Sequence record: MH051335.1
Origin: Escherichia phage vB_EcoM-Ro157lw
Length of the DNA: 64,000 bases
Reading direction: 5' to 3' (one strand)
Shown: in pieces, positions 1 through 64,000 of the stretch
Layout: every line of letters begins with the position of its first letter
Numbering within the stretch: position 1 is the stretch's first letter
Program-made: the position numbers and the translations under genes
Notes under the pieces: generated by a model
What the model saw: the letters and a program-made list of their open reading frames with translations, nothing else
What the model was told of the DNA's origin: nothing
Databases searched by the model: none

Positions 1-50
1 TCCAGATTAGCAGTTGTGATAAAGTATTGTTCATGATAACCTCTTTAATT

Positions 51-71
51 CCCTTCCCATATCGGGAAGGG
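51..71 (+). terminator. GC-rich hairpin CCCTTCCC-ATATC-GGGAAGGG followed by A/T-rich tract; possible intrinsic terminator
   Basis: Perfect 8-bp inverted repeat with 5-nt loop read directly; downstream CAAATATTATTTT. Confidence 0.35.
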
Positions 72-229
72 CAAATATTATTTTACGCGAAAGAATAGGC
101 GCGTGCCACACAGCGAGTCCCAACGGCCCTCACCATCCCATATCGACCCAACACCAGCAGCGATTGGTCCAGCAGAATTGGCGGCATTGGCCCAGGCGAG
201 TCGTTTAAGCTTCCAACTGCACCAACGAT

Positions 230-463
230 TCACAGTTCGCCTCCAGACTTCAAAATTAATCCCGCATAGATTATTGCCAGAGCTAAAGGCGCACCGTCGC
301 CAGCCTCTCTATTCTCTTTGATTTGAAGAGTATCTTTTAGGAATTGAAGCTGAACGTTGAATTCATTTTCAATTCCAAGCACTCCAGCTAATCCTTTTAC
401 AGAATCTGCATATGCCTTGTCTATCACTTCTTTTGGCACCGTTAAGGTTAATTCATTTGCCAT
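230..463 (-). CDS. hypothetical protein (77 aa)
   Basis: ORF with GGAG-containing RBS upstream of ATG at 463; no recognisable motif. Confidence 0.4.
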   Translation of the reverse strand: MANELTLTVPKEVIDKAYADSVKGLAGVLGIENEFNVQLQFLKDTLQIKENREAGDGAPLALAIIYAGLILKSGGEL

Positions 464-674
464 TTTCTTTCCACTCCACAAATGTACTGCTACTTGTTTC
501 TCTATTTAGCAGGTATCTGCCGCGCATTCCACGAAGGCTGAATTCAACCGTCGATGGATTAGATTTTGAAAGCCACATCACTTGACCGTCGAACGGTCCG
601 CCAACGCATGTGTATTTGGCCTTTGGCTCACTCCTTTTGGGCCTCTTTGCCCGCTCTTTGATTGATAGTCTCAT
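453..674 (-). CDS. hypothetical basic protein (73 aa)
   Basis: ORF in six-frame track; Lys/Arg-rich N-terminus; overlaps neighbours by a few nt as in an operon. Confidence 0.35.
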   Translation of the reverse strand: MRLSIKERAKRPKRSEPKAKYTCVGGPFDGQVMWLSKSNPSTVEFSLRGMRGRYLLNRETSSSTFVEWKENGK

Positions 675-889
675 CAGTCTTCACCTTGAGATTCAAGACA
701 AGTAAGAACAAGCCACGTCATCGGAAGAATCAAAACCAGAGAAATAAGTGACCAAATGGACCAACACAAGATGACAGACTTGAATGTGTGAACGTCGCCA
801 AACGCAGCAGTGAAACAAAATCCCATTACGAAAGCAATCGCTGTGGAGTGATTATCAATGGCTTTGATGGCGCGGTCGATGAGTTTCAT
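674..889 (-). CDS. small membrane protein with two predicted transmembrane helices and charged C-terminus; holin-like
   Basis: 71 aa; hydrophobic stretches AIAFVMGFCFTAAFG and VILCWSIWSLISLVLILPMTWLVL; acidic C-terminal tail; size and topology as in class II holins. Confidence 0.4.
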   Translation of the reverse strand: MKLIDRAIKAIDNHSTAIAFVMGFCFTAAFGDVHTFKSVILCWSIWSLISLVLILPMTWLVLTCLESQGED

Positions 890-1037
890 ATTACCTCCGG
901 TTTTGAGTTAATATGATTATAATGCAGAATTTCAGAAAGGCAAACTTTTTGTGAATTTAAATTAAAAAAATGGCCAGAAATAATCTGGCCAAAAAGATCA
1001 CCCTTTATCCACTACTAAGCTGGAATCATAATTTTAC

Positions 1038-1067
1038 TTGATATAGCTGTCTCAAGCAAACTATAAT
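1038..1067 (+). promoter_or_regulatory. sigma70-like promoter candidate (TTGATA-18 nt-TATAAT) upstream of terminase gene
   Basis: Hexamers read directly; -10 abuts ATG 1068, so the true start codon may be the in-frame ATG at 1101. Confidence 0.3.
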
Positions 1068-2528
1068 ATGAATAAAATATTAACACATAATTGGAAAGTC
1101 ATGTACCAGTTGAATCCTGCTTTAAGAGAAGTCTGGAAGACGAAAGCGCGATACAAAGTCATATACGGCGGTCGTGCATCTTCCAAATCGCACGATGCCG
1201 CTGGTTTTGCTATTTATTTGGCGGCAAACTTCAAATTAAAATTCCTTTGCGTTCGACAATTCCAGAACAAGATTTCTGAATCAGTATATACGCTATTAAA
1301 AGATAAAATAGAGATTTCTGATTTTAAAGACGAGTTCAACTTATTAAAGAACTCTATTGAACACAAAAGAACAAAATCTGAATTTTTATTTTACGGTATC
1401 GCACGCAACGTTGACGAAATCAAATCAACAGAAGGTGTTGATGTTCTTTGGCTTGAAGAAGCGCATGCACTGACTGAAGAGCAATGGGACATCATTGAGC
1501 CGACAATTCGTAAGGAAGGGTCCGAAATATGGATCATATTTAACCCTGATGAAGAGGCTGATTTTGTCTACCAGAACTTTGTCATGCGACCGCCGAAGAA
1601 TGCCATCGTTAAGAAGATTAACTGGCAGGACAACCCATTCTTGTCGCAAACAATGCTGGATGTTATAGCTGGCATGTATGAGCGCGACCCGAAAAAGGCA
1701 GAACACGTTTATGGCGGAGTACCGAAGACTGGCGGCGACAAGTCGGTCATCAACCGTGCATTTGTCAAGGCCGCGCTAAACCTCCACAAACACCCTACGC
1801 TGGGGTGGAGCTTGTCAGGGTCTAACCGTATAGGCTTCGACGTGGCGGACGACGGCGACGACTTAAACGCCACAGCGTTTGTCACAGGCAACGTATTACG
1901 TGGCATCAAGACATGGGAAGGTCTGGAAGATGAATTGCTTAAGTCCGCAAGCGGAGTTTGGAAAGACGCATTGACATTCGGCGCATCAATCACCTATGAC
2001 GCCATCGGTGTTGGTGCATTTGCTGGTTCAAAATTTGATGAGCTTAATGAGTATGCAATCCATGAAAATCCAACATTCCCAAGAATCGAATTTAATGCGT
2101 TCAACGCGCAAGGTGCTGTTGATGATCCTGATGACGTTTTCCTTGAGTTACCACACGTTGAAATACTCAATAAAGACCATTTCGCAAACATAAAAGCGCA
2201 AAAATGGACTGAGATTGCCGAACGATTCAGAAAGACATATGAGTATGCGACAGGGCAAGCCGTATATCCGACCGATGAGTTGATTTCCATCGACACAGAC
2301 GGCATCCCAGAACTTGGTATTCCCGCTTGGTCTGCCGAAGAAATTGAGACGTTTCTTTTTGAGATGTCAGCACCGCGCAAAGACACGTCTGTTCTTGGTA
2401 AGTTCAAAGTTGAATCGAAAAAAGATATGGCAAAGCGTGGAGTCAAATCGCCTAACAAAGCGGACGCAGCAATCATGGCATTGATGAAACCAATTGTTGC
2501 AGCATCCGGCTTCTTCTCTAACCTTTAA
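1068..2528 (+). CDS. terL: terminase large subunit (ATPase plus nuclease)
   Basis: Walker A-like GGRASSKS near N-terminus, Walker B-like VLWLEEAH, acidic nuclease-type C-terminal half; first gene of the structural module. Alternative start at 1101. Confidence 0.85.
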   Translation: MNKILTHNWKVMYQLNPALREVWKTKARYKVIYGGRASSKSHDAAGFAIYLAANFKLKFLCVRQFQNKISESVYTLLKDKIEISDFKDEFNLLKNSIEHKRTKSEFLFYGIARNVDEIKSTEGVDVLWLEEAHALTEEQWDIIEPTIRKEGSEIWIIFNPDEEADFVYQNFVMRPPKNAIVKKINWQDNPFLSQTMLDVIAGMYERDPKKAEHVYGGVPKTGGDKSVINRAFVKAALNLHKHPTLGWSLSGSNRIGFDVADDGDDLNATAFVTGNVLRGIKTWEGLEDELLKSASGVWKDALTFGASITYDAIGVGAFAGSKFDELNEYAIHENPTFPRIEFNAFNAQGAVDDPDDVFLELPHVEILNKDHFANIKAQKWTEIAERFRKTYEYATGQAVYPTDELISIDTDGIPELGIPAWSAEEIETFLFEMSAPRKDTSVLGKFKVESKKDMAKRGVKSPNKADAAIMALMKPIVAASGFFSNL

Positions 2529-2531
2529 CAA

Positions 2532-2771
2532 TTAAAGCATTCCGTGCTGAAGGTCGAGCTTTCTTGCGGCAAACGACCTGGCACGGAATCGCTTACCCGC
2601 CCTTACTGCCTGTCGAATTTTCTTTTGCAAACACTTACGGTCAAAATCGTTGCGGTCGACGGCTTCGAGTAAATCGCGACGCAGTGCACCCAGTGTCGAC
2701 TTATCGGAGACTTCGACGCCGAGCGCGGCTGCAACATCTTTCAAAACATCGAGTTCGGTTAAAGTTCTCAT
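2532..2771 (-). CDS. hypothetical protein (79 aa) with SAP/HeH-like N-terminus and basic C-terminus
   Basis: ORF antisense to the structural operon; N-terminal LTELDVLKDVAAALGVEVSDKSTLGALRRDL resembles a helix-extension-helix DNA-binding motif. Confidence 0.35.
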   Translation of the reverse strand: MRTLTELDVLKDVAAALGVEVSDKSTLGALRRDLLEAVDRNDFDRKCLQKKIRQAVRAGKRFRARSFAARKLDLQHGML

Positions 2772-3184
2772 TTAATAATCCCCTTGATGTCTGATTCTGC
2801 CATGAAGATTGGAGTGCCGCCGCCAGGAACAATCGAGCGCGTAACTTTGTCAAACATATCGTTTTCTTCAACTTGAATACGATAAAATTTATTTTTGGAT
2901 GAAGATGGGCACAATCCCATAAATTTGCCGATTCCGCGAACGCATTCATCTTCAAAGTATACTGTTTCACCTTGAATGGAGTCGATATTGTCTACTGGAT
3001 AGACTTTGCGACCCAACAACCACTCATCCAAAGTCGCCTGCAAGACGTTTCGCGCATCTAAAATCCACGGGTCAATAGTAGCACCTTCGTATCGCGCAGC
3101 AGTGGCCTTTGCCAGTTCTTCATATTCGCATACGTTAACGACTTCGCCGTTGTGTAGGACGACAAATACAATTGTTGTGCTCAT
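2768..3184 (-). CDS. hypothetical protein (138 aa)
   Basis: ORF with 4-nt ATGA overlap to the downstream gene; AT-rich promoter region upstream at 3185-3313. Confidence 0.45.
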   Translation of the reverse strand: MSTTIVFVVLHNGEVVNVCEYEELAKATAARYEGATIDPWILDARNVLQATLDEWLLGRKVYPVDNIDSIQGETVYFEDECVRGIGKFMGLCPSSSKNKFYRIQVEENDMFDKVTRSIVPGGGTPIFMAESDIKGIIK

Positions 3185-3279
3185 TTCAATCTCCTTTCGT
3201 TTGGTTAACTAAAATATAACTCAAAATGATACAAAAGCAAAATATTTTATGAACTATTTATGATCACCATACATATCAT

Positions 3280-3308
3280 TTGCTTACAAACACATGAATA
3301 TTTATAAT
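3280..3308 (+). promoter_or_regulatory. sigma70-like promoter candidate (TTGCTT-17 nt-TATAAT) upstream of portal gene
   Basis: Hexamers and spacing read directly in a divergent intergenic region. Confidence 0.35.
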
Positions 3309-3346
3309 ATAGATTGATTCCCTTTCACTGTCAGGTGGCGTTAACA

Positions 3347-5722
3347 ATGAAAATTCTTGGCATAAAACTCTGGGAGAAGACGCAACCAGAAGCCGAACCA
3401 GCGGAGATGCCGCCAGGCGACCCATTGGCACCGTTTGAACGCCTTGAAAGGCGCGGCAGCGGTCAACGCTGGGAAAAGACTGAAAGCAATCGACCGACCT
3501 TTAAAACGGTTGATGACTTCCCTTTATATGAGCCTGATATTAATGGCGATGGTGTTGCAATCATAAAAGGTCGTTCAGTCGATTCCGCAACAGTATCCAA
3601 AAAGGTTATGGATAATGCCTTAAAGAACATCAGTTCAGAAGGGCAAGTCAACCCATACACAGTACCTATTCAACTTCAAAACTGGTATTTGTCACAGTCA
3701 TTCATCGGCTATCAAGCTTGCGCAATTATAGCGCAGCACTGGCTGGTGAACAAGGCTTGTTCCATGGTAGGCCGCGATGCGGTCCGTAAAGGCTGGGAAG
3801 TTAAATCCAGTTCTGAGTCAGAATTGTCAGTACAAGCCAGCGAACGCCTAAAGCAAATTGATAAAGAATTTAATATCAAAGAGCACTTAGTTGAAGCCGA
3901 ACGATTCAAAAATATTTTTGGTATCCGCGTCATCATATTTGATGTGCGTAGCGATGACCCAGAATATTACAGCAAGCCTTTTAACATTGATGGTGTGACA
4001 AAGGGGTCTTATAAGGGAATCATTCAGGTTGACCCTTATTGGATGATGCCATTTTTGACGTCTGAAAACACCGCCGACCCTGCATCACAGCACTTCTATG
4101 ATCCAGAATACTGGGTGATCAGTGGACAACGTTATCATCGAAGTCACCTCATCATCTTGCGCAATGATGAGCCAGCTGATATTCTCAAGCCAACTTATAT
4201 TTACGGCGGCATTCCTCTGACTCAGCAGATTTATGAACGCATCTATGCCGCTGAACGTACCGCTAACGAAGCGCCATTGCTGGCGATGTCCAAGCGTACA
4301 ACCACGCTGCGGACCGACGTTGACAAGGCTATTGCCAATGAGCGGTCTTTTGCAGAACGTCTGATGATGTGGATCAAGTACCGCGACAACTATGCAGTCA
4401 AAGTGCTTGGCCAAAAAGAAGAGATGGACCAGTTTGACATCAACTTGTCAGACTTCGACAGCATCATCATGAACCAGTACCAGCTTGTGGCCGCAATCGC
4501 AAAAGTTCCGTCGACCAAACTGCTTGGGACTTCGCCAAAAGGCTTTAACGCCACTGGTGAATTCGAGATGGTCAGCTATCACGAAGAGTTGGAAACGTGC
4601 CAGCAGCATGACCTGACAAAAATTCTCGACCGCCATTACAAAATCCTTCTCAAATCAGAAGGGGTGGATGTCGATGTTAAGGTTGCATGGGAACCAGTTG
4701 GCTCACTTACTGCTACTCAACTTGCAGAAATCAATGATAAGCGAGCCAACACTGGCAAAACTCTTATTGATGCTGGCGTCATTTCTCCTGATGAAGAGCG
4801 CGACCGCATCAAAGACGACAAAAACAGCGGCTACAACCGTCTGCCGGAAGACGCAGCAGAAGAAACCCCAGGGATGTCTCCAGAGAATATGGCATTGCTT
4901 GGCAAGTCTGCTGGTGAAGTCCTGCAAGGTAAGGCCGATATTGAACAGGCGAAAGCTGATGTCGTTAAGATGGGCGGCCAGTTCTATAGCGAAACAGGTA
5001 TTATGCCAGAGGGTGCCGCGCGTGGTGAGTTGGCGGAAAACCCTGACAAGGCGCCTGTCGAAATCAACATGGACGATACCGATGATGAATCAAGCCATCA
5101 GGTTGATGTCCTAACGCAGTTGAAAGAAGGGCTGGAGGGTATTGCGGATTACTACCTGAAAGAAGGTCAGGATGTGGATTTTGACCCTCAAAAAGATTCA
5201 CGGTCGGTGCAACCGTCTACCCTTCCAAGCGTTAAAGGACACGTCGTCAACTTACGCCACAACGTGGGTAAAATGGACGCAGCATCATTACCTAAGATGA
5301 AGTTGCACGGAATGATTCTTGGCATTGAGAATCCGCGAAACAGCATTCGTAGAGGAAACAGCCTTGACGGTGAATGGGCCGTGAAGATGCCGCACCACTA
5401 CGGATTCATCAAGGGCACCAAGGGCGCAGACGGTGATGAAGTCGACTGCTTTGTGGGTCCAAATCTGAAGTCGCCGAAAGTCTTTATCGTGAACCAAAAC
5501 GATAACTACTCTGGCGAGTTTGATGAACACAAGTGTATGCTTGGATTCGATTCAGCAGAAGAAGCGAAAGAAGCTTATCAAGCATCATTTGGTAACGGTT
5601 GGAACGGATTCGACTCAATCCACGAATTAGATGTGAACTCATTCAAGGAGTGGTTGAAGGGTGATTGCTCTCAAGCATACGGAGCACTCAATAATCCTAC
5701 TAATTCACCGAAGCAAGGTTGA
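3347..5722 (+). CDS. portal protein with C-terminal inorganic-pyrophosphatase-like extension
   Basis: About 790 aa immediately after the terminase; RBS AGGTGG before ATG 3347; C-terminal 130 aa carry the DGDEVDC motif matching the family I pyrophosphatase signature. Confidence 0.75.
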   Translation: MKILGIKLWEKTQPEAEPAEMPPGDPLAPFERLERRGSGQRWEKTESNRPTFKTVDDFPLYEPDINGDGVAIIKGRSVDSATVSKKVMDNALKNISSEGQVNPYTVPIQLQNWYLSQSFIGYQACAIIAQHWLVNKACSMVGRDAVRKGWEVKSSSESELSVQASERLKQIDKEFNIKEHLVEAERFKNIFGIRVIIFDVRSDDPEYYSKPFNIDGVTKGSYKGIIQVDPYWMMPFLTSENTADPASQHFYDPEYWVISGQRYHRSHLIILRNDEPADILKPTYIYGGIPLTQQIYERIYAAERTANEAPLLAMSKRTTTLRTDVDKAIANERSFAERLMMWIKYRDNYAVKVLGQKEEMDQFDINLSDFDSIIMNQYQLVAAIAKVPSTKLLGTSPKGFNATGEFEMVSYHEELETCQQHDLTKILDRHYKILLKSEGVDVDVKVAWEPVGSLTATQLAEINDKRANTGKTLIDAGVISPDEERDRIKDDKNSGYNRLPEDAAEETPGMSPENMALLGKSAGEVLQGKADIEQAKADVVKMGGQFYSETGIMPEGAARGELAENPDKAPVEINMDDTDDESSHQVDVLTQLKEGLEGIADYYLKEGQDVDFDPQKDSRSVQPSTLPSVKGHVVNLRHNVGKMDAASLPKMKLHGMILGIENPRNSIRRGNSLDGEWAVKMPHHYGFIKGTKGADGDEVDCFVGPNLKSPKVFIVNQNDNYSGEFDEHKCMLGFDSAEEAKEAYQASFGNGWNGFDSIHELDVNSFKEWLKGDCSQAYGALNNPTNSPKQG

Positions 5723-7651: not shown

Positions 7652-7689
7652 ATCGCCTGGCAATGGATTGCCGCAGGATTTTACGCGTA

Positions 7690-7965
7690 TAATGACGTAT
7701 CATCCGTATCAAGTAAGTAGTTGTTTTCAAAAGAATCTTACGGATGATACGGATGATACGCGTTGCCGCGATAATTTATAGGAATTCAAATAAATTAATT
7801 TAAAATTATATATCTAATTTAATTTTATTTTTTTATAAACTCTTATATATGAAAAGTATCCGTATCATCCGTATCATCCGTAGCACACCAGTGATAGCGC
7901 GGCTTATACACCGATACGGATAAAAATACGCCTCATTTTATCCGTATCATCCGTATCACACTAAT
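7690..7965. repeat. iteron-like direct and inverted repeats of ATCCGTATCATCCGTATCA flanking an extremely AT-rich core
   Basis: Copies at 7695-7713, 7741-7760 (inverted), 7857-7884, 7911-7921 and 7937-7960; AT-rich core 7770-7856. Confidence 0.7.
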
Positions 7966-8073
7966 TAAGGCGCGGCTATATCGGTTGTTATACATATTCA
8001 AACCATAATTATTGTTTGCCTAAGTTTTTTTCATTAGATATAATACACAATACTTATTTGAGGGTGGATGCGA

Positions 8074-47612: not shown

Positions 47613-48695
47613 ATGGCTAGTTTAAGAGAAGAAGCAAAAATAATCGAAGAGTTTTTGACGGAACTCCAAAGAGGCATTCCAGAAGATGAACGCGTCATGA
47701 CCGTGTTTGCGCCTGAAGCAACGGTGCAGACCGACGAGCGCGGCAAAAAGATTAACAGCAGCTTCTGGCCTAAGCCTTGGAAGCTTGGCAAGCCGCTGAT
47801 GCAACATCAGAACGGTTACGCCTGCATAAGTTCAATGCGTAAGTCTCCCAACCCAAAGACAGGCGAGATGCGATACTGGCGCACGGAATCGGCTTTCGGT
47901 CATGGCATGGCGATGATGGTCGACGACATCGGACACGGTAAAGGGTCAAAGGGCGATTTAGATTTGGAGTTCTTTTTCGAGCGCCTAAAACCAACCGTCA
48001 TCGTCGAGACTTCGCCGAACAACCATCAGCTGTGGTACTTCTTTAAAGAACCGATTGACCATCTTATTCAGTTCAAAGCATTCCTTGGGTCTTTCGTAAA
48101 CATGGTACTCAAGAAGGGCGGCGACAACACGATTAAAGACGTGACGCGCGTGGGCCGTGTTCCTGGGTGCATCAACAACAAGCGTGTGACTCACGACGGC
48201 CCCTATAAATATGTCGATGAGAACGGCGACCCGTTCCGCTGCCGACTTGTCCATGCAGACTATTCCTTGCGCTACACAATCGAAGAGATTTGCCAAGCCT
48301 TCGGTTTCCACGTCGTTATGCCGCAAAAGCGTGAAATTCAAATCGACGTTGACGAATACAAATATGACGCTGTTTGGTATAAGATAGCCCAGCAAATCCT
48401 TGCGCGCAATAAGATGGGCGAAGGGTCAGATGGCGATGTGGTTGAAAACATGTCAGGTAAATGTCGCATCATCTGTCCTTGGGGTGAAGAGCACACCAAC
48501 GGCGACCCATACGGCGCTTATTTTCGCGGCCCAATCCCTGGCGCTGAACATGAATTCGTTTTCGGTTGCGCTCACGACTGTCACCGGAAAGGGGAAGGCA
48601 AGAAAGGATGGACCGCTTTTGTTGAAGCAGTAGTCATGCCTTATATTGAGAATCAACTTGATATGATAAATCGTCGCGCAGGTGGCATAAAATAG
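47613..48695 (+). CDS. putative primase-polymerase (AEP-like) with C-terminal Cys/His zinc-binding cluster
   Basis: Acidic MMVDDIGHG segment, C-terminal CRIICPWGEEH...FGCAHDCH cluster, paired downstream with VirE/D5-like NTPase. Confidence 0.45.
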   Translation: MASLREEAKIIEEFLTELQRGIPEDERVMTVFAPEATVQTDERGKKINSSFWPKPWKLGKPLMQHQNGYACISSMRKSPNPKTGEMRYWRTESAFGHGMAMMVDDIGHGKGSKGDLDLEFFFERLKPTVIVETSPNNHQLWYFFKEPIDHLIQFKAFLGSFVNMVLKKGGDNTIKDVTRVGRVPGCINNKRVTHDGPYKYVDENGDPFRCRLVHADYSLRYTIEEICQAFGFHVVMPQKREIQIDVDEYKYDAVWYKIAQQILARNKMGEGSDGDVVENMSGKCRIICPWGEEHTNGDPYGAYFRGPIPGAEHEFVFGCAHDCHRKGEGKKGWTAFVEAVVMPYIENQLDMINRRAGGIK

Positions 48696-50004: not shown

Positions 50005-51675
50005 ATGTCAATTGAACATGACAATCTTCCAGAGGATACAGGTGATGAATTTGGTGCAATCTTTGACGAAATTCAAGACGCTGGTGTTTCAGAAGAGATG
50101 CAAGCGGCAGAGCAGCAAGGCACCAGAGCTAAAATCAGCCTCCAGCATAAGGCTGTTGAGAAAGATGCAGAGCGCATGGAGTGCTACGGTGAAGAAGACT
50201 TGGTTGAAAGAGCACGTTTGCTCGCCTCACTTCAGGTAATCAAGTTCCCTCACTACAAACCGACGAAAGATGATTTTGTTCTTCAGGCGGACCGGACGAG
50301 TGACATGAACCGTTATGCGGTTTTCGACGCGTTGTTTGATAAGGGAAGCGGCATTGTCCCATTCCCTCACAAAGATACTTTTCGTGGACGCTTAGTCGAC
50401 CATCGCGGCGAAACATTCACCGACCGGACGTTGGAAGTCACAGAGATAGTTGCCGCTGTAGACGCAGCAGGTCTGTCCAACCCAAACTCACGTCAGGTCG
50501 CTCAATCCTATAAGGAATGGGCTATGCGTTATCAGCGCGACGACCTGATGGACTTCTTCTACAAGAAGCTGCCTGAATGGGACGGTACTGCGCGCATTGA
50601 AAAATACCTTATCGAGCTATTCCGACCGTTCGATACAGAGTTAAACCGACAAATCGGTGTGTATTTTTGGCTATCGCTCTATAACCGCCTGACCAATCCT
50701 GGCTGTCAAGCGCCAATCTCCATTGCGCTCATCGGCGGCCAGAACGCAGGGAAGAGTTATTTTAGTAAGCTGCTTTGCGAAGCTATTATGAACGACCGCC
50801 ACGCAACACCGATTCCGTTGAACTTGGCCGCGCAGAACTTCAACCCGTTCTTGCGAGCTATTACGGGTCGCTCAATTATCGCGAACGTTGGTGAGATGAC
50901 AGGCTTTAAAAAGGCCGACATCGAAAACATGAAAGCATTCCTGACTAAGACGGAAGATGACCTGGACTTCAAATTTGAAGATACGCAGGTTAAACCACGC
51001 CAGTGGATTGCTATCATGGACGGCAACGAATACGCAGGCATGCAGCGTGACGATACGGGCAACCGTCGTGTGTATCCTATCTTTGTTGGCCAACTCGCCG
51101 ACAAGGACGGGCAACCGAACTGGTCGAAAGACTTCCAAGCTGACCTTTCCACTTTGAAAGAAGACGTTTGGCAACTGATGGCTGAGTGTGCTGCGTGGAT
51201 GGAGAAGCACGGCGAAGCAGGTTACAACGCGTTTGTCGGTGAAACATCTCGCATGCTTACTGAGTTCAGCAAGAACGAAATGGAACGCGCTCGCGGCGTT
51301 ATCCGTGATGAGATGGTCGACAACGACCTTGTTGAAGTCGTCATCACCGCGCCTTATGACCGACATCACAGCGGACGCTGGCACATCACCAGTGGTGCAA
51401 TCGCTATGGGATTCAGAGCTAAGTGCGGCAAGTCGCCTTTCTCACGTACCCTTGCGCCGCACATGTCGAAGCTTGGATTTGAGCCTGCAACCTATCGCAA
51501 CCAGCGTGGCTACTTTACGCCGCTGATTAAGAATGAAGCAGGGGAATACATTTCTGACTTGATGACTATCTTAGCGTATCTTATCCGCGACGAGTCTGAC
51601 CCTGAAGATATTGAATTCTTGAAGAAGGTTATTGAACGCAAACGTTCTTTAGGAAGAGATAAGGATGAATTCTGA
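50005..51675 (+). CDS. VirE/D5-like P-loop NTPase (primase-associated helicase)
   Basis: Walker A LIGGQNAGKS; 556 aa; shortly downstream of the primase-polymerase candidate. Confidence 0.6.
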   Translation: MSIEHDNLPEDTGDEFGAIFDEIQDAGVSEEMQAAEQQGTRAKISLQHKAVEKDAERMECYGEEDLVERARLLASLQVIKFPHYKPTKDDFVLQADRTSDMNRYAVFDALFDKGSGIVPFPHKDTFRGRLVDHRGETFTDRTLEVTEIVAAVDAAGLSNPNSRQVAQSYKEWAMRYQRDDLMDFFYKKLPEWDGTARIEKYLIELFRPFDTELNRQIGVYFWLSLYNRLTNPGCQAPISIALIGGQNAGKSYFSKLLCEAIMNDRHATPIPLNLAAQNFNPFLRAITGRSIIANVGEMTGFKKADIENMKAFLTKTEDDLDFKFEDTQVKPRQWIAIMDGNEYAGMQRDDTGNRRVYPIFVGQLADKDGQPNWSKDFQADLSTLKEDVWQLMAECAAWMEKHGEAGYNAFVGETSRMLTEFSKNEMERARGVIRDEMVDNDLVEVVITAPYDRHHSGRWHITSGAIAMGFRAKCGKSPFSRTLAPHMSKLGFEPATYRNQRGYFTPLIKNEAGEYISDLMTILAYLIRDESDPEDIEFLKKVIERKRSLGRDKDEF

Positions 51676-59968: not shown

Positions 59969-60240
59969 TGGATAAAAGAACAATTGTTTACGTGTTTTGA
60001 ATAATGGGATGTGTACAATGGGTCGCTTTACGCGGCCTTTTGTTGTTTTGGTCGTGTTTCTTGATGGAATAATTATGAGGCGATGTTTTATTTATTAATT
60101 GTGCGGAAATATTTAGAAATATATATAAACAGGATTGTTAATATTTTAATAGCGTATGACTATTGGTCCGTGGTGTTTGTTAGGAATTATCTATGGATTG
60201 AAATTTTAGTGTCGTGAAACGTGGTGTTTGAACACATTTG

Positions 60241-60600
60241 ATACGCGTAAAATACGGCTAAAAATTAAGCGTATCATGGCTGCAGGCCGCGCCGTTCCTG
60301 GATTCATCCTTTCCAAATTGGTACACCCTTACGTCATGATACGTCATGGTTTTTTATCCGTATCAGTGTACAGCCCTTGCCGCGCCTGGCTTGTACATTA
60401 ATCTTACGGATGATACGGATAAAACTGGGCATCGTTATATATATAATTTGAAAAATTAATTAACTCCATTTTGAATTAATTTAAATTAATTTTTTCTACA
60501 TCCTCATACTTATGTTAATTTATATATTTAACGTATTATCCGTAAGATATAAGTAAAAACAAAGACTTGCGGCAATACGGATGATACGTCATGATACGCT
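60241..60600. repeat. second iteron-like region: ATCCGTATCA-family repeats flanking an AT-rich core
   Basis: TTATCCGTATCAG, CTTACGGATGATACGGATAAAA, TTATCCGTAAG, ATACGGATGATACGTCATGATACG read directly; AT-rich core 60431-60520. Confidence 0.7.
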
Positions 60601-60826
60601 TCAACCAGCCAGCAGCGGCTAAGTCATTGATTTGCATAACACGCGGCGAAAGGGATGGATTTCTTTTATACGTATCAAACAGTACACCAAGCACCACGGT
60701 CCGCTATTCATTAAGCATTGTGATTTATGTACGTTTACAGCCAATTTGAACATCAATCTGCACTTGAATATAATGTTCAATCATTGTATAATTCACACTA
60801 TTAATTTGCACTATGGGATTTGCACT

Positions 60827-61300
60827 ATGAGTCAAGATTATGTAGCAATGCCTGAAGACTTTGAAGACCCGCGATTTGCAGAGCATAATCAGGCATTATT
60901 CGATGAGTTCATTGACCTTGTTATTCAGGGCCATGACATGCGCGCAGCTTTTGCACTAGTATTTGGCATGGAGGTTGCGACCGATAACTACACTGGCCAG
61001 CGAATCCTCTGCACGCAACGCAATCCGTACTACAAGATGCGCTACAAAAAGCGTATGGAAGAGATGCCATTGAAGGAATTGTGGAGCGTAAAGAGTTCCA
61101 TCCACAATTTAGTGAAGCTTGTGCGTGATCCAGAAGTCGCGGCATCAGCCAAGCTTAATGCCATTCGTGAACTGAATATCATCTACGGCATTACGATGAT
61201 TGATGAAAACGGCAATAGTAAAATGGGCCGTTCCATGGATGATTTCTACAAGGATTTTGGAGAGGCGGCCAAAGAGGGTGAGCAATTCTCCCGCCACTAG
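60827..61300 (+). CDS. hypothetical protein (157 aa); start codon lies inside an ATTTGCACTATG motif
   Basis: ATG 60827 in frame of ORF 60632-61300; no conventional RBS spacing. Confidence 0.4.
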   Translation: MSQDYVAMPEDFEDPRFAEHNQALFDEFIDLVIQGHDMRAAFALVFGMEVATDNYTGQRILCTQRNPYYKMRYKKRMEEMPLKELWSVKSSIHNLVKLVRDPEVAASAKLNAIRELNIIYGITMIDENGNSKMGRSMDDFYKDFGEAAKEGEQFSRH

Positions 61301-61319
61301 CCAATTTGCACTATAAAAC

Positions 61320-61353
61320 GGCCCTAGAACACATTTTCTCCACTTCTAGGGCC
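61320..61353 (+). other. stem-loop GGCCCTAGA...TCTAGGGCC (9-bp stem, 16-nt loop)
   Basis: Perfect inverted repeat directly after the stop at 61300; no U-tract. Confidence 0.3.
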
Positions 61354-61728
61354 ATCGGTAATACGACGGGGAAGGCTGCAACCATAAACGCGTTAGAAAG
61401 TGTATTATTATAAGTCATCTTTTAGTCACTTTACGTAACAATTTACGACCTTCAGCCGTCCAGTCGAACGACTCCACCAGCAGATTTGCACTATAACCTA
61501 AGACGATGCGCCCTTTCTCGTTATCAACCCGCCAACAAGTCTCGAATAGCATTCGATTTGCACTATTAACTATCGCCGCAGCGCGCGTTGGGTAAGCGCA
61601 ATTTGCACTATGGTCGTAAAGGGATAAGGTGCGACCACTTCCGATGGACAACGTAGCGATGAGAATAAGCGTATTCATAAGCCACCAATTTGCACTATGA
61701 AAAGCGACCCCGAAGGGCCGCCATTCGA

Positions 61729-62355
61729 TTAGATGATCTGGAAGGTGTAGGACTTGTTGCCGAACTCAAAGTTTAAGCGCCCAGCTTCCTTGAGCTTCAT
61801 ACGGAAGCGAATGTGCTTGCTATCCGGTAAGCCCAGCGCGGCGAACGCTACGCGGACTGATTTGAACTCGCCTACACCCTCGACCATAACGGCGTTACGC
61901 GTGAGACGCTTTTGCGCCACTTCCTTGTTATCCCAACTTTTTGCAATACCTTCGCTATTCGAACGGCGATGGGAAGGACTGGCAATTTTATCCGCGCCAA
62001 CCGGAGTATCATTCAGGCCGCTCTTGACGAATGCTTCATACTCTTCGTCGGTCATCGCGTCGAGTTCTTCCTGAGTCGGCTCGGCCTTTTTAACGACCGC
62101 ACGCGCCTTATGCGTTTTTACATCGCTGGACACTTCCTCGCACGGCTTCGCGTCTGGAATGGGCGATTCGTTGGACGGCTCATCGAGCGCGTTTAAGGAC
62201 TCGATTAACGCGATGACGCGAGTCTCAGCGGTGCGACGGTCCGCAAACTTCTTAATCGGTTTTGAGCCGGAGTTAGCGTTATAGAACGCAACGAGGTCGG
62301 CGGTCTTAGTTGCGATAACGTCGCCGCTAGTAGAGAAACGATTCAAGCTAACCAT
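61729..62355 (-). CDS. hypothetical protein (208 aa)
   Basis: RBS AGGAG upstream on the minus strand; divergent from the downstream plus-strand genes. Confidence 0.45.
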   Translation of the reverse strand: MVSLNRFSTSGDVIATKTADLVAFYNANSGSKPIKKFADRRTAETRVIALIESLNALDEPSNESPIPDAKPCEEVSSDVKTHKARAVVKKAEPTQEELDAMTDEEYEAFVKSGLNDTPVGADKIASPSHRRSNSEGIAKSWDNKEVAQKRLTRNAVMVEGVGEFKSVRVAFAALGLPDSKHIRFRMKLKEAGRLNFEFGNKSYTFQII

Positions 62356-62496
62356 AATAAACTCCTAGTTTGGGAGCGGCGTTAACGACCTATTCGCTAA
62401 CTCATCCCGTCCCGATATGAGTACATTATAATATAGTGTAGAAAAAAGTAAAGCACTTTTTCGATAAAAATGCGATAAATTATTTTATCTTTTTTC

Positions 62497-62524
62497 TTTA
62501 CTTCTTCGTACACTCGCGTATACT
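62497..62524 (+). promoter_or_regulatory. sigma70-like promoter (TTTACT-16 nt-TATACT), copy 1 of a duplicated promoter-leader module
   Basis: Shares TTCGTACACT spacer core and downstream TTTATATCGAGA with the copy at 62894-62922. Confidence 0.4.
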
Positions 62525-62579
62525 TGTTTATATCGAGACGGGCGATGGCCTTCCTTCTACTAGCATCGGGAGCTTTATT

Positions 62580-62882
62580 ATGACTACTTTAATCTCTTCC
62601 ATCCTTACTTACGACGAAGACCGTTTAACCGTTCGCTCTCTTATCGCCGCCGTTAACGCGGAACTAGAATCCAGCGCCATTAAGGTCCGCGCGGTCGCCT
62701 TCGTCGGCCTCTCCTTCGACGAAATTAAATACGCCGAACGTAGCGCCATCCGCTTCGCGAAGACCGACGACGAAGCCGTCACCCTTATCGAGACGGTTAC
62801 GCCGCGCGACGAAGCGTTAATTATCGTCGAGTATATCGACGTAGAAGGCGATAATGCTTATAAATATTTTATCGCAAAATAA
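62580..62882 (+). CDS. hypothetical protein (100 aa)
   Basis: RBS GGGAG; CG-dinucleotide-rich codon usage distinct from the upstream genome. Confidence 0.45.
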   Translation: MTTLISSILTYDEDRLTVRSLIAAVNAELESSAIKVRAVAFVGLSFDEIKYAERSAIRFAKTDDEAVTLIETVTPRDEALIIVEYIDVEGDNAYKYFIAK

Positions 62883-62893
62883 CGAAAAAGTGC

Positions 62894-62922
62894 TTTACTT
62901 ATTCGTACACTAAGACTATAAT
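62894..62922 (+). promoter_or_regulatory. sigma70-like promoter (TTTACT-17 nt-TATAAT), copy 2
   Basis: Hexamers read directly; same flanking sequence as copy 1. Confidence 0.4.
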
Positions 62923-62989
62923 GTTTTATATCGAGAGGGGATGAGGTAGCGAATAGGTCGCTACCCTCCCGACTAACTAGGAGAATATT

Positions 62990-63280
62990 ATGATTACTTT
63001 ATCCGCTATCCGTTCCGCTCGCGTCGAAACTTCCGAAAACTCTAACGTATTTGGCGAAACCTTAGAGAGCGTTTATCTCTCTAACGTAGACGCGATTATC
63101 GAGTCTATTTATGAGCCGATCAACTTTCTCGACCTTTACAAGTATCGCGACGAGGACATCGTATCCTACCGCGTAACGATTAACGGCTTCGTCTATACGA
63201 TTACCGAAATCGGCGGCGAATATATCGCTGTACCGCAACTCGGCGGCGAAGTAACTTACTTTAAAATCGTAAGCCTTTAA
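62990..63280 (+). CDS. hypothetical protein (96 aa)
   Basis: RBS AGGAG; same leader architecture as 62580-62882. Confidence 0.45.
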   Translation: MITLSAIRSARVETSENSNVFGETLESVYLSNVDAIIESIYEPINFLDLYKYRDEDIVSYRVTINGFVYTITEIGGEYIAVPQLGGEVTYFKIVSL

Positions 63281-63291
63281 GGAGAAGAAAG

Positions 63292-63501
63292 ATGACTAAT
63301 ATGAATAACTCTCTTAACGCGCGCGCCCATCGCACCGCCGTAATCGATATGTTTCGCGAGCTTAAGGAATTATGCGATAATATGAACGCGATGTTATCCA
63401 TCGGCGGCTGGGGATACGAAGAAGAAGTTAAATACGCGGTTATGCGTCGCCGTCGCGATAACGTCCTTGGGCAAATTAAACGCGCCGGATTATTCCTTTA
63501 A
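63292..63501 (+). CDS. hypothetical protein (69 aa)
   Basis: RBS AAGGAG; terminator follows. Confidence 0.4.
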   Translation: MTNMNNSLNARAHRTAVIDMFRELKELCDNMNAMLSIGGWGYEEEVKYAVMRRRRDNVLGQIKRAGLFL

Positions 63502-63527
63502 TTATAATCACCCACCGTTACTAATAG

Positions 63528-63550
63528 GCCGCGCTTAGTCGCGGCTTTTC
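63528..63550 (+). terminator. intrinsic terminator (GCCGCG-CTTAGT-CGCGGC then TTTTCTTCG)
   Basis: 6-bp GC stem plus U-rich tract read directly. Confidence 0.5.
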
Positions 63551-63671
63551 TTCGTCCCTATCTCGATGCGCTTCTCCTCGAAAACTCCTTTATCCTTCCC
63601 TTCTTCGTCGCATAATCTTCGTCGAGATGCGCCTTAGTTCGCATAACAGGTATTACGTTAAATGGAGAACA

Positions 63672-63745
63672 TCGCGTAAGTCGTTGTTTTATATAGACAC
63701 CTATATCGGAACGTTAAGGCGGGTCGCGTAAGTCGTTGTTTTATA
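63672..63745 (+). repeat. two direct copies of TCGCGTAAGTCGTTGTTTTATA spaced 52 bp apart in a non-coding stretch
   Basis: Copies at 63672-63693 and 63724-63745; a further direct repeat AATCATTCGCTTTC occurs at 63871 and 63916. Confidence 0.6.
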
Positions 63746-64000
63746 AAGGCGCAAAACTTTCCCTTCGTTCCGAACTAAAACGAGAAATATGCCGACCCTT
63801 CGCCCGAAAATAGTACGCATGCGAAATTACCGACATCTAGAATAATCCCCACCGATATTATTCTGCGCGCAATCATTCGCTTTCGAACTATTATGCTTCA
63901 TATTATTATGCGTCGAATCATTCGCTTTCTAATTGTAACGCTGGAAACTGTAACGGCGATTGATTATTGCGTTCGTGTGGTTTTTAGGGCATGGGTCTTT

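What the first reader, a model, noticed from the sequence alone, without database searches (positions are those of the whole stretch)
60804..61698. Seven same-orientation copies of ATTTGCACTAT in a gene-poor 0.9-kb stretch
The 11-mer occurs at 60804, 60818, 61304, 61484, 61556, 61601 and 61688, always on the plus strand and mostly outside convincing ORFs. Three copies continue as ATTTGCACTATG, so an ATG sits at the motif's 3' edge, and the ORF at 60827 starts exactly there. This could be a phage-specific promoter element, a leaderless start, or a set of binding sites for a regulator, possibly the divergently encoded 208-aa protein at 61729-62355.
Basis: seen in the sequence. Interest (0 to 1): 0.6.

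Follow-up and report, generated by a model that had tools for sequence, protein, structure and literature searches.

The report
Strand-specific site array around small terminase gene
The repeated 11-mer is real and belongs to a conserved, one-strand array of protein-binding-type sites around the small terminase gene, just inside the end of an E. coli phage genome; it is probably where the DNA-packaging machinery recognises the genome, a site still unknown for this terminase family.

Summary
In detail: there are 7 exact plus-strand copies, none elsewhere in 64 kb, against 0.09 expected by chance. The window is a Wifcevirus, an E. coli myovirus. The stretch is 82% coding and lies 336-1230 bp inside the left edge of the 3.5-kb direct terminal repeat (60469-64000). 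The ORF that starts in copy 2 is the small terminase (TerS; PDB 7uxe, E=9e-33). The 11-mer is the sharp form of a roughly 14-bp asymmetric site, cRATTyGCACTAyra. Arrays of 8-14 same-strand copies, with none on the other strand, occupy the same place in three other lineages: Pantoea phages Kyle and PA1, and one metagenomic contig. Their TerS is only 42-52% identical and the array DNA between the genes does not align. Copies sit in coding and non-coding DNA and in two reading frames, so selection acts on the DNA. The sites are not promoters: most face convergent genes, and sigma-70-like promoters lie upstream of terS. My best reading (0.4) is a TerS recognition array comparable to cosB or pacB. 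The rivals are binding by the neighbouring 208-aa putative winged-helix protein, a polar end signal co-distributed with Chi sites, and an origin of replication. I found no published description.

The parts
60804..60814 (+). Copy 1 of ATTTGCACTAT. It lies in the terS 5' leader, about +6 to +16 from the promoter whose -10 hexamer ends at 60792.
60818..60828 (+). Copy 2. Its last two bases are the first two bases of the terS ATG (60827).
61304..61314 (+). Copy 3. It starts 3 nt after the terS stop codon, is preceded by CCACTAGC (one mismatch from reverse-complement Chi), and is followed by the hairpin at 61320-61353.
61484..61494 (+). Copy 4. It lies inside the 87-aa minus-strand ORF, where it is read as Y-S-A-N. 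An exact reverse-complement Chi (61474-61481) ends 2 nt upstream.
61556..61566 (+). Copy 5. It lies inside the 87-aa minus-strand ORF, where it is read as N-S-A-N.
61601..61611 (+). Copy 6. It lies inside the 87-aa minus-strand ORF, where it is read as H-S-A-N.
61688..61698 (+). Copy 7. It lies between the start of the 87-aa ORF and the stop of the 208-aa ORF, and overlaps the T-tract of the minus-strand terminator hairpin at 61704-61721.
60791..60801 (+). Degenerate copy ATTCACACTAT (2 mismatches), 13 nt upstream of copy 1. It overlaps the last two bases of the -10 hexamer of the terS promoter.
60949..60959 (+). Degenerate copy TTTTGCACTAG inside terS. It is the same variant form seen in PA1.
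60827..61300 (+). terS, the small terminase (157 aa).
   Evidence: PDB 7uxe_A 'Small terminase' matches at E=9e-33 over residues 3-147. Phage Mansfield annotates the identical protein as small terminase. It belongs to phrog_4783.
61415..61678 (-). Conserved 87-aa ORF with a signal-peptide-like N-terminus and two conserved Cys residues. It carries three copies of the motif.
   Evidence: It is 33% identical (E=7e-13) to a 94-aa ORF at the same position in PA1 and is also found in Kyle and L280. No protein family matches it.
61729..62355 (-). 208-aa protein (phrog_4730), convergent with terS. It is a putative DNA-binding protein with an N-terminal three-helix domain and a C-terminal winged-helix-like domain. 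Close relatives carry 1-2 further motif copies in the part of this gene that encodes the low-confidence linker.
   Evidence: The orthologue vB_Eco4M-7_19 was detected by mass spectrometry.
60746..60792 (+). Two overlapping sigma-70-like promoters reading into terS: TTGAAC-17-TATAAT and TTGAAT-17-TATAAT.
61320..61353 (.). Hairpin with a 10-bp stem between the convergent terS and 87-aa ORF. The WFC and WFH records annotate it as a terminator.
61704..61721 (-). Terminator-like hairpin after the 208-aa gene, annotated as a terminator in WFH.
60469..64000 (.). Direct terminal repeat (3532 bp here). Its left boundary is placed by homology to the PhageTerm-defined start of Mansfield. Window base 64000 is the right physical end of the genome.
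61474..61481 (-). The single exact Chi site (GCTGGTGG on the minus strand), oriented for RecBCD entering at the left end of the genome.

Best explanation
The seven 11-mers are the sharpest copies of a strand-specific array of a roughly 14-bp asymmetric DNA site, consensus c-R-A-T-T-Y-G-C-A-C-T-A-Y-r-a. The array occupies the first 0.3-1.5 kb of the direct terminal repeat and surrounds the small terminase gene.

I propose it is the cis-acting packaging-recognition region of the genome. Ring-shaped TerS oligomers would bind the same-orientation sites, several rings or several helix-turn-helix domains at once. That would mark this end of a concatemer junction, position the large terminase (window 1068-2528) to cut about 340 bp to the left at the repeat boundary, and fix the direction of packaging. 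Functionally this would match lambda cosB, T3/T7 pacB, SPP1 pacL/pacR or the P1 pac hexamers. In Wifcevirus only, copies 1-2 lie at about +6 to +30 of the terS promoter, so the same binding would also repress terS.

**Shown:**
- the array, its strand bias and its position in the terminal repeat;
- the identity of TerS;
- conservation across four lineages, with selection acting on the DNA.

**Inferred:**
- that a protein binds the sites;
- that the protein is TerS;
- that binding directs cutting and packaging.
For: 1. **Non-random, polar and unique.** There are 7 exact copies against 0.09 expected. In the left 1.9 kb of the repeat, GCACTA occurs 8 times on + and 0 times on -. The other 62 kb hold 6 and 8.
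2. **Position.** The array spans bases 336-1230 of the terminal repeat. The terS ATG is base 359, compared with 361 in Mansfield and WFC, 357 in Kyle and 377 in MTx.
3. **The adjacent gene is a true small terminase**. TerL lies elsewhere in the genome.
4. **Conserved as an array, not as aligned sequence.**
   - Kyle has GCACTA 14/0, PA1 13/0 and metagenomic L280 9/0, always from within terS to the 3' end of the 208-aa homologue.
   - TerS in these lineages is 42-52% identical to the window's.
   - blastn aligns only short coding pieces.
   - The 35 sites share flanks R-A-T-T-Y and Y-R-A.
5. **Selection acts on the DNA.** Copies occur in non-coding DNA, in terS, in the 87-aa ORF and in the 208-aa gene of relatives. 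They fall in two reading frames (xSAN and xVQN). At one orthologous position PA1 encodes NLVQN and Kyle NLSAK, with the core shifted by 1 nt.
6. **Phyletic pattern.**
   - The four array-bearing lineages form one clade in a TerS tree.
   - None of the 14 other TerS lineages examined has the array, and neither does the whole E217 genome.
   - In TerS, a Glu that is invariant in all 14 array-less lineages is Q, K, K or R in the four array-bearers, followed in all four by Arg, which only 2 of the 14 others have.
7. **Symmetry.** Head-to-tail sites suit a cyclically symmetric ring; the E217 TerS is a decamer. Dimeric regulators usually use inverted repeats.
8. **Other lineages carry other local repeats next to terS.** MTx has 3 copies of a 21-mer just 3' of terS. 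L145 has at least 6 copies of GAACTTGCGGC (0-1 mismatch, both strands) in about 200 bp upstream.
9. **Nothing published.** No paper in the library holds the motif in this context, and the recognition site of this TerS family is unknown.
Against: - No binding data exist. The only characterised homologue, E217 TerS, showed no appreciable DNA binding in vitro.
- Known pac and cos recognition regions are compact, 200 bp or less. This array is spread over about 1 kb with irregular spacing (14-486 bp here, mostly 45-105 bp in Kyle and PA1) and no robust helical phasing.
- TerS proteins that are only 42% identical would have to keep one specificity. Lambda and phage 21 differ in specificity at much higher identity (my own knowledge).
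- Serratia phage MTx has the same terminal-repeat and terS architecture but no GCACTA array.
- A second conserved putative DNA-binding protein, the 208-aa protein, is encoded at the array's edge.
- The array is co-distributed with, and has the same polarity as, Chi sites in Kyle, PA1 and L280. That could point to DNA-end processing instead.
- Because the repeat is present at both genome ends, the array also lies 2.3-3.2 kb from the right end.
Confidence: 0.4

Rival explanations
1. The array is bound by another phage DNA-binding protein, most obviously the 208-aa protein encoded at its right edge. That protein has an N-terminal SAP/Rho-N-like three-helix domain and a C-terminal winged-helix-like domain. 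Together they would form a nucleoprotein complex near the genome end that represses the convergent terS and 87-aa/208-aa transcription units, blocks exonucleases, or anchors or condenses the end.
For: - The 208-aa gene is syntenic with the array in all four lineages, at 46-56% identity.
- Its C-terminal segment EFKSVRxAFxALGLPDSKHIRFRMKLK is nearly invariant. It is modelled at pLDDT 86-94 as a helix-helix-beta-hairpin.
- A highly conserved reader would explain an unchanged motif across genera.
- The protein is expressed and was found by mass spectrometry in phage preparations.
- Close relatives have motif copies inside its own gene.
Against: - No Pfam family matches it.
- Pbunavirus E217 has an orthologue with essentially the same putative recognition helix (SSKHIRFRMQLK). 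Yet its whole 66-kb genome has only 1 (+) and 5 (-) copies of GCACTA and no array.
- Head-to-tail sites with no inverted partners are unusual for winged-helix dimers.
Confidence: 0.2
2. The motif is a polar signal read on one strand by a DNA-end-processing or translocating enzyme that enters at the left end of the genome. It would be a second, Chi-like element acting on the host RecBCD or another nuclease-helicase. Its role would be to protect the end and channel it into recombination between terminal repeats, forming concatemers.
For: - The strand bias is strict and the copies cluster within 1.5 kb of a physical DNA end, as for Chi.
- In Kyle, PA1 and L280 the array is interleaved with 7-9 Chi sites of the same polarity (CCACCAGC on +; 1 copy in L280 and 0 in the others in the opposite orientation). 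MTx has 4.
- Motif and Chi are often directly adjacent. The window has CCACCAGC-AG-ATTTGCACTAT. PA1 and Kyle have ATTyGCACTAc-CCACCAGC.
- The motif is unchanged across phages whose hosts are both Enterobacterales.
Against: - No known enzyme recognises this sequence.
- The order of motif and Chi is reversed between Wifcevirus and Kylevirus.
- Related phages of Serratia and Salmonella lack the motif.
- The conserved flanks give a site of about 14 bp, which fits a duplex-DNA binder better than an 8-nt single-strand signal.
Confidence: 0.1
3. The array belongs to a replication origin or a priming region. The copies would be iteron-like sites for an initiator, or recognition sites for the phage's RepB-type primase and VapE/D5-type helicase (47613-48695 and 50005-51675), allowing synthesis to start near the genome end.
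For: - Direct repeats in a single orientation are typical of iterons.
- The phage encodes its own primase, helicase and a Pol III alpha-like polymerase.
- A very AT-rich stretch and further repeats (ATCCGTATC) lie 100-500 bp to the left.
Against: - The spacing is irregular and wide, unlike tandem iterons of about 20-bp period.
- Most copies lie inside genes.
- No initiator gene is adjacent.
- The replication genes lie 10-13 kb away, and array-less relatives have them too (primase genes in tabernarius and BcepF1).
Confidence: 0.08
4. The 11-mer would be a phage-specific promoter, or would mark leaderless translation starts, because an ATG sits at its 3' edge.
For: - CACTAT followed by G or A loosely resembles the 3' end of T7/SP6-type promoters (my own knowledge).
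- Copy 2 ends in the terS ATG.
Against: - The motif occurs only in this 0.9-kb stretch and before no other gene in 64 kb.
- Five of the seven copies would drive antisense RNA into convergent genes.
- In Kyle and PA1 no copy lies upstream of terS.
- Consensus sigma-70-like promoters and a Shine-Dalgarno sequence already serve terS.
- The other three motif ATGs open ORFs of only 5-11 codons.
- None of the 19 proteins I scanned against Pfam matched an RNA polymerase or sigma-factor family. I did not scan the proteome exhaustively.
Confidence: 0.03
5. The motif is a by-product of a repeated peptide (x-Ser-Ala-Asn) in the small minus-strand ORFs, or a chance or recent duplication.
For: Three copies in the window and four in PA1 are read as SAN in one frame of homologous small ORFs.
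Against: - The same codons (AGT GCA/GCG AAT) are used every time, despite 48 possible codon combinations.
- Other copies fall in a second frame (IVQN, VVQK), in terS on the opposite coding strand, in the 208-aa gene's linker, and in non-coding DNA.
- One orthologous copy has shifted frame between PA1 and Kyle.
- Chance is excluded.
Confidence: 0.02

Closest known systems
Lambda cosB (R3, R2, R1 sites bound by gpNu1, between cosN and the Nu1 gene)
   Same: Both have several copies of a short asymmetric element, placed just inside the end at which packaging starts and next to the small terminase gene. Both would serve as the assembly platform for the terminase.
   Different: cosB is about 120 bp with 3 sites plus an IHF site. 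The ends are 12-nt cohesive ends, not a 3.5-kb direct repeat. Here there are 8-14 sites spread over about 1 kb, running through genes and starting about 340 bp from the end. Binding has not been tested.
P1 pac (seven TGATCA/G hexamers flanking the cut site, bound by PacA) and SPP1 pacL/pacR boxes around gene 1
   Same: Both are multi-copy short boxes in and around the small terminase gene. [quoted passage not shown]
   Different: Those phages package by headful and give permuted genomes. Their sites lie within about 160-270 bp and flank the cut. P1's hexamers are Dam-methylation sites. The details on P1 come from my own knowledge.
T3/T7 concatemer-junction signals (pacB, pacC) and the SRL/SRR arrays of short direct repeats beside the T7 terminal repeat
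   Same: These phages also have exact direct terminal repeats. The recognition signal (pacB) is separate from the cut sites. Arrays of about 12 same-orientation heptamers lie next to the repeat, and their role is still unclear. All of this is from my own knowledge.
   Different: The T7 repeat is 160 bp, and the arrays lie outside it within about 170 bp. The T7 terminase genes are far from the ends and unrelated in sequence.
Chi (GCTGGTGG), the polar RecBCD regulatory sequence
   Same: Both are strictly one-stranded and active only from one side. Here both cluster in the same 2 kb next to the left end, with the same polarity.
   Different: The sequence is different. The conserved flanks give about 14 bp. 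No enzyme is known to read it. It is absent from bacterial genomes as an array.
Iterons of plasmid and phage origins (for example lambda ori, P1 oriR)
   Same: Both are direct repeats in a single orientation bound by one protein species.
   Different: Iterons are 17-22 bp, tandem at a regular pitch, and adjacent to an AT-rich unwinding element and to the initiator gene. None of these features was found here.

Membership tests
Terminase recognition site (cosB / pacB / pac boxes) | Lies close to the genome end or cut site at which packaging starts. | tested here: met
   The array occupies bases 336-1230 of the direct terminal repeat. The left edge of the repeat was defined by PhageTerm in Mansfield and agrees with the WFC, WFH and Kyle records. 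The direction of packaging is not known.
Terminase recognition site (cosB / pacB / pac boxes) | Linked to the small terminase gene. | tested here: met
   Copies flank and enter terS (60827-61300). TerS identity was shown by the PDB 7uxe match at E=9e-33. The same linkage holds in Kyle, PA1 and L280.
Terminase recognition site (cosB / pacB / pac boxes) | Unique in the genome. | tested here: met
   The 64-kb window has no copy outside the array, and the remaining 4.6 kb has none in Mansfield. The array is duplicated only because the terminal repeat is.
Terminase recognition site (cosB / pacB / pac boxes) | Sequence-specific binding by TerS. | not testable with these tools
   The only biochemical data are on the E217 homologue, which showed no appreciable DNA binding. 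E217 also lacks the array.
Terminase recognition site (cosB / pacB / pac boxes) | Required in cis for packaging. | not testable with these tools
   This needs mutant phages or plasmid-packaging assays. A synthetic reboot system exists for vB_Eco4M-7 (PMC11074155).
Terminase recognition site (cosB / pacB / pac boxes) | Specificity co-varies with TerS between lineages. | tested here: inconclusive
   The array is confined to one TerS clade, and that clade has a specific Glu-to-basic change. Within the clade, though, the motif is unchanged at 42% TerS identity. Outside it, only weak and unrelated local repeats were seen.
Phage or sigma-70 promoter | Located upstream of genes, in their orientation, and spread across the genome. 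| tested here: not met
   Five of the seven copies face convergent genes. No copy lies elsewhere in the genome. Kyle and PA1 have none upstream of terS. Separate sigma-70-like promoters lie at 60746-60792.
Chi (RecBCD hotspot) | The sequence is GCTGGTGG or an active variant. | tested here: not met
   The motif is unrelated to Chi. True Chi sites are separate elements: 1 in the window's array region and 7-9 in Kyle, PA1 and L280.
Chi (RecBCD hotspot) | Polar, with its orientation set relative to a DNA end. | tested here: met
   The counts are 8/0, 14/0, 13/0 and 9/0 on the two strands, the same polarity as the neighbouring Chi sites.
Iteron-type origin | Tandem repeats of about 17-22 bp at a regular pitch, beside an AT-rich region and an initiator gene. 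| tested here: not met
   Spacings are 14-486 bp and irregular. The conserved unit is about 14 bp. Most copies are in coding DNA. No initiator gene is adjacent.
Operator array of a winged-helix regulator (the 208-aa protein) | The regulator has a confidently assigned DNA-binding fold. | tested here: inconclusive
Operator array of a winged-helix regulator (the 208-aa protein) | The sites co-occur with the regulator across relatives. | tested here: not met
   E217 has the orthologue, with a conserved putative recognition helix, but no array anywhere in its genome.

The most novel reading that the evidence does not exclude
The motif is a new polar 'end signal'. In this reading it is read on one strand from the left end of the genome, works together with the interleaved Chi sites, and attenuates or redirects a host or phage nuclease-helicase. 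The effect would be to convert the terminal repeat into a recombination substrate for concatemer formation. That would make it a second Chi-like element, carried by a phage.
Probability: 0.1. Interest if true: 0.85.

Novelty: new variant of a known kind. Interest (0 to 1): 0.55.

Why it matters
How small terminases find viral DNA is an acknowledged open question. The 2022 review read here calls the mechanism 'elusive and controversial'. For this TerS family, whose solved structure is a decamer from Pseudomonas phage E217, no recognition site is known and no DNA binding was seen.

This finding supplies a concrete and unusually rich candidate substrate. It is a sharply defined site of about 14 bp, present in 8-14 head-to-tail copies next to terS and conserved in four lineages. 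It could be tested directly by EMSA, by cryo-EM of TerS bound to DNA, and in rebooted phage genomes.

It would bear on the 'nucleosome', multi-ring and interdigitation models of TerS recognition. It would also bear on how exact 3.5-kb terminal repeats are generated in Wifcevirus and Kylevirus. Wifcevirus phages are studied against E. coli O157/STEC and are relatives of the Pbunavirus phages used in personalised therapy.

If the binder turns out to be the 208-aa protein or a nuclease instead, the array still marks an unrecognised functional module at the genome end.

Tried and rejected
- **Known protein families for the neighbours.** Pfam found nothing for TerS, the 208-aa protein or the 87-aa protein. 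PHROGs gave only 'unknown function'.
- **Literature.** The 11-mer appears in 8 unrelated papers, such as primer lists, and none concerns phages. The Wifcevirus, BASEL and vB_Eco4M-7 papers do not mention it.
- **IMG/VR scan for motif pairs.** Of 108 stretches, only Wifcevirus contigs had dispersed arrays. The rest were chance pairs or tandem repeats of period 9-84 nt.
- **Bacterial genome scan.** All were chance pairs or tandem repeats, apart from one 811-bp contig with Wifcevirus spacing in a Xanthomonas assembly. No host locus carries an array.
- **Equivalent arrays in 14 other TerS lineages and the whole E217 genome.** None has GCACTA. Only weak or different local repeats turned up.
- **Helical phasing or regular spacing.** Nothing was robust. 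The best result was Kyle, with R=0.46 at 10.5 bp from 20 distances, after scanning 13 periods.
- **A shared sequence at the left and right repeat boundaries.** I looked for a common cut-site signal and found no shared 8-mer.
- **Host transcription-factor consensus sequences.** From memory I compared the motif with the DnaA box, marbox, NtrC half-site, the sigma-54 -12 element and IHF. None fits, and I ran no formal test.
- **Within-genus conservation.** Wifcevirus genomes are 91-96% identical here, so intact copies are uninformative. The variants that do occur (ATTCGCACTAT, TTTTGCACTAT) match the degenerate consensus.
- **afdb50 fold library.** It was unavailable.
- **Metagenome scan with the 8-sequence TerS alignment.** Repeating it with 3 sequences found lineage L280.
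Full report
**1. The observation**

The 11-mer ATTTGCACTAT is present exactly seven times, always on the + strand, at the coordinates given. It occurs nowhere else in the 64-kb window. One hundred dinucleotide-preserving shuffles gave a mean of 0.09 copies and never more than 2. Allowing two mismatches adds only two local degenerate copies, 60791 ATTCACACTAT and 60949 TTTTGCACTAG. The rest of the window then shows no excess: 20 matches against 27 expected. An unbiased scan of all 7-mers for local clustering ranks this motif first in the window.

Three details in the finding need correcting:
- Four copies are followed by G, not three. Only the ATG of copy 2 opens a gene.
- The stretch is 82% coding, not gene-poor.
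- The 208-aa gene is convergent with the ORF that starts at 60827, not divergent.

**2. Where we are**

The window is a Wifcevirus, a roughly 68-kb virulent E. coli and Shigella myovirus. This region is 91-96% identical to EC150, F13, vB_Eco4M-7, WFC, WFH, ECML-117 and Mansfield.

These phages have a direct terminal repeat of about 3.7 kb (Korf et al. 2019). In Mansfield the repeat was defined with PhageTerm as 1-3673. Mansfield base 1 corresponds to window 60469. The last 20 bases of the window equal the end of the Mansfield repeat and the end of the WFH record. So 60469-64000 is the terminal repeat, and base 64000 is the physical right end of the genome. The array therefore occupies bases 336-1230 of the repeat.

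The ORF starting in copy 2 (60827-61300, 157 aa) is the small terminase:
- It matches PDB 7uxe, 'Small terminase', at E=9e-33 over residues 3-147.
- An identical protein is annotated as TerS in Mansfield.

The large terminase is at 1068-2528 (Pfam Terminase_3). That is about 8 kb away on the circular map.

The start of terS lies 357-377 bp from the left genome end in Mansfield, WFC, Pantoea phage Kyle and Serratia phage MTx. The architecture 'terS just inside the left end of a long terminal repeat' is therefore old.

**3. Anatomy**

- Two overlapping sigma-70-like promoters (10 of 12 matches) lie at 60746-60792 and read into terS.
- Copies 1-2, plus the degenerate copy at 60791, then fall at about -8 to +30 of the second promoter. 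A GGGA Shine-Dalgarno sequence sits between copies 1 and 2 and is annotated as the RBS in Mansfield.
- Copy 3 starts 3 nt after the terS stop codon. It is followed by a 10-bp-stem hairpin (61320-61353) that WFC and WFH annotate as a terminator.
- Copies 4-6 lie inside a minus-strand 87-aa ORF.
- Copy 7 lies between that ORF and the 208-aa gene, against the terminator hairpin at 61704-61721.
- Close relatives carry further copies: one about 93 bp upstream of copy 1 in vB_Eco4M-7, and one or two inside the 208-aa gene. All are on the + strand.

**4. The decisive comparison**

TerS homologues occur in 358 phage records. In Pantoea phage PA1 (Kylevirus; TerS 42% identical by MAFFT, or 40% by tblastn) the same core recurs. 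At least 12 + strand copies of (A/T)T(T/C)(T/C)GCACTA(Y) run from the 3' half of terS to the stop codon of the 208-aa homologue. There are none on the other strand.

Counts of GCACTA on the + and - strands in this region:

| Lineage | + strand | - strand | Source |
|---|---|---|---|
| Window (left 1.9 kb of the repeat) | 8 | 0 | |
| Pantoea phage Kyle | 14 | 0 | |
| Pantoea phage PA1 | 13 | 0 | |
| Metagenomic contig L280 (TerS 52% identical) | 9 | 0 | |
| Window, remaining 62 kb | 6 | 8 | |

Aligning the 35 sites on GCACTA shows informative flanks, giving the consensus c-R-A-T-T-Y-GCACTA-Y-r-a, about 14 bp and asymmetric.

blastn between these genomes aligns only short coding pieces of terS and of the 208-aa gene. 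The array region between those two genes does not align.

The copies lie in non-coding DNA, in terS, in the small minus-strand ORFs and in the 208-aa gene. Within the small ORFs they occupy two different reading frames, x-S-A-N and x-V-Q-N/K. At one orthologous position PA1 encodes NLVQN and Kyle NLSAK because the core is shifted by one nucleotide. The unit of selection is therefore the DNA site, not a peptide or an RNA of one polarity.

The four array-bearing lineages form a single clade in a TerS tree. None of the following has the array:
- fourteen other TerS lineages: Pbunavirus E217, MTx, Salmonella PCSE1, tabernarius, BcepF1, FoX7 and eight IMG/VR lineages;
- the complete E217 genome;
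- the bacterial genomes sampled.

**5. What it is not**

It is not a promoter or a leaderless start. The orientation is wrong for most copies. The motif precedes no other gene. The Pantoea phages have no copy upstream of terS. terS also has its own promoters and Shine-Dalgarno sequence.

It is not an iteron array. The spacing is irregular at 14-486 bp, and no initiator gene is adjacent.

It is not a coding artefact.

**6. Most likely mechanism**

The array has the properties of a cis-acting protein-binding platform:
- a sharp asymmetric site;
- many head-to-tail copies;
- strict strand bias;
- a single occurrence in the genome, apart from the copy in the second terminal repeat;
- DNA-level conservation.

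Its fixed association with terS and with the left edge of the terminal repeat makes the small terminase the most economical binder. Head-to-tail sites also fit a ring with cyclic symmetry; the E217 TerS is a decamer. In this model TerS oligomers load on the array, TerL cuts about 340 bp to the left, and packaging proceeds in a direction fixed by the polarity of the sites. In Wifcevirus the promoter-proximal copies would add autoregulation of terS.

One weak supporting detail comes from TerS itself. A Glu that is invariant in all 14 array-less TerS lineages is replaced by Q, K, K or R in the four array-bearers, followed in all four by Arg, which only 2 of the 14 others have. This change sits at the start of a basic helix.

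Every step beyond 'conserved DNA-level array next to terS at the repeat edge' is inference. I give this explanation 0.4.

**7. Rivals**

(a) *The 208-aa protein.* It is syntenic with the array. Its nearly invariant C-terminal segment is modelled with high confidence as a helix-helix-hairpin. The nearest structural matches are winged-helix DNA binders, but all are below significance. It was detected by mass spectrometry in phage preparations. Against it, E217 has the orthologue, with the same putative recognition helix, and no array.

(b) *A polar end signal.* In Kyle, PA1 and L280, 7-9 Chi sites lie interleaved with the array, and MTx has 4. All but one of them (in L280) are oriented for RecBCD entering at the left end. 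They are often immediately adjacent to a motif copy. The window's single exact Chi, and a one-mismatch variant of Chi, sit 2 nt upstream of copies 4 and 3. This co-distribution is unexplained by the terminase model and keeps a Chi-like reading alive at about 0.1.

(c) *An origin or priming region*, about 0.08.

**8. Comparison with what is known**

The closest functional analogues are:
- lambda cosB;
- the P1 pac hexamers;
- SPP1 pacL/pacR;
- T3/T7 pacB, together with the unexplained SRL/SRR heptamer arrays beside the T7 terminal repeat.

This array differs from all of them. It is spread over about 1 kb, runs through genes, has more copies, sits inside a long terminal repeat, and is interleaved with Chi. 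The 2022 TerS review states that E217 TerS showed no appreciable DNA binding and that TerS recognition remains unresolved. No paper in the searchable library describes this motif.

I classify it as a new variant of a known kind, unproven, and of moderate to good interest because it makes an open question directly testable.

Noticed in passing
L124 (Kyle) 255-1972; L009 (PA1) 2861-4433; L280 1625-3322; L011 (MTx) 179-1393; window 61474-61481 and 61294-61301: Chi sites (GCTGGTGG) cluster on the minus strand in the first 2 kb or so of the terminal repeat. Counts with and against this orientation are 9/0 in Kyle, 7/0 in PA1, 7/1 in L280 and 4/0 in MTx. They are oriented for RecBCD entering at the left end of the genome. 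The window has one exact site and one single-mismatch site (CCACTAGC), each 2 nt upstream of an 11-mer copy. They may promote RecBCD-dependent recombination between terminal repeats.
   Followed up: partly
window 7680-7970 and 60239-60677: The 9-mer ATCCGTATC / GATACGGAT, in both orientations and partly tandem (CCGTATCATCCGTATCA), is concentrated in two intergenic places. One flanks the left boundary of the terminal repeat at 60469, with 8 GATACG cores in 430 bp. Kyle and PA1 have different heptamers around their boundaries (GGTTATT 7 times, AACCGTT 5 times). These are lineage-specific boundary or regulatory elements of unknown function.
   Followed up: partly
window 60391-60558: A 27-nt inverted repeat (81% complementary) has arms at 60391-60417 and 60532-60558. 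It straddles the left boundary of the terminal repeat and an extremely AT-rich stretch of about 100 bp.
   Followed up: no
window 62383-62466 and 62880-62963: Inverted repeats of 36 and 33 nt duplicate a promoter-like region: TTTACT-16/17-TATAAT at 62452-62425 (-) and 62894-62922 (+), with a third TTTACT-16-TATACT at 62497-62524. The core AAGTAAAGCACTTT is also present in Kyle. These are probably early promoters or operators of the genes in the terminal repeat.
   Followed up: no
window 63672-63748 and 63855-63942: There are two pairs of direct repeats (a 25-mer TCGCGTAAGTCGTTGTTTTATA and a roughly 43-mer ATATTATT..ATCATTCGCTTTC) within 330 bp of the right physical end of the genome. They might belong to the right-hand cut signal.
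   Followed up: no
window 61415-61678 (-): A small conserved ORF (87 aa) has a signal-peptide-like N-terminus and two conserved Cys residues. It is found only in the array-bearing lineages and hosts three to four motif copies as Ser-Ala-Asn codons. Its function is unknown.
   Followed up: partly
window 61729-62355 (-): The 208-aa protein has an orthologue, vB_Eco4M-7_19, that was detected by mass spectrometry in phage preparations (4 peptides). The gene tolerated a C-terminal HiBiT tag in a rebooted phage (PMC7048862, PMC11074155). It may be associated with the virion or with the DNA.
   Followed up: partly
L011 (MTx) 965-1090; L145 3080-3292: Other TerS lineages carry their own repeats next to terS. 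MTx has three copies of AAAAAATAAGCATGCTTTGTA just 3' of terS. L145 has at least six copies of GAACTTGCGGC (0-1 mismatch), on both strands, within about 200 bp upstream of terS.
   Followed up: partly
L167 (NZ_JPLE01000260.1, Xanthomonas pisi DSM 18956, 811-bp contig): This contig carries the motif with exactly the Wifcevirus spacing (15, 131 and 355 bp). It is most likely phage contamination of that assembly.
   Followed up: no
window 3314-5722: The portal protein (Phage_portal_3) carries a C-terminal inorganic pyrophosphatase-like domain (Pfam InPase, E=3e-46). This is an unusual fusion.
   Followed up: no
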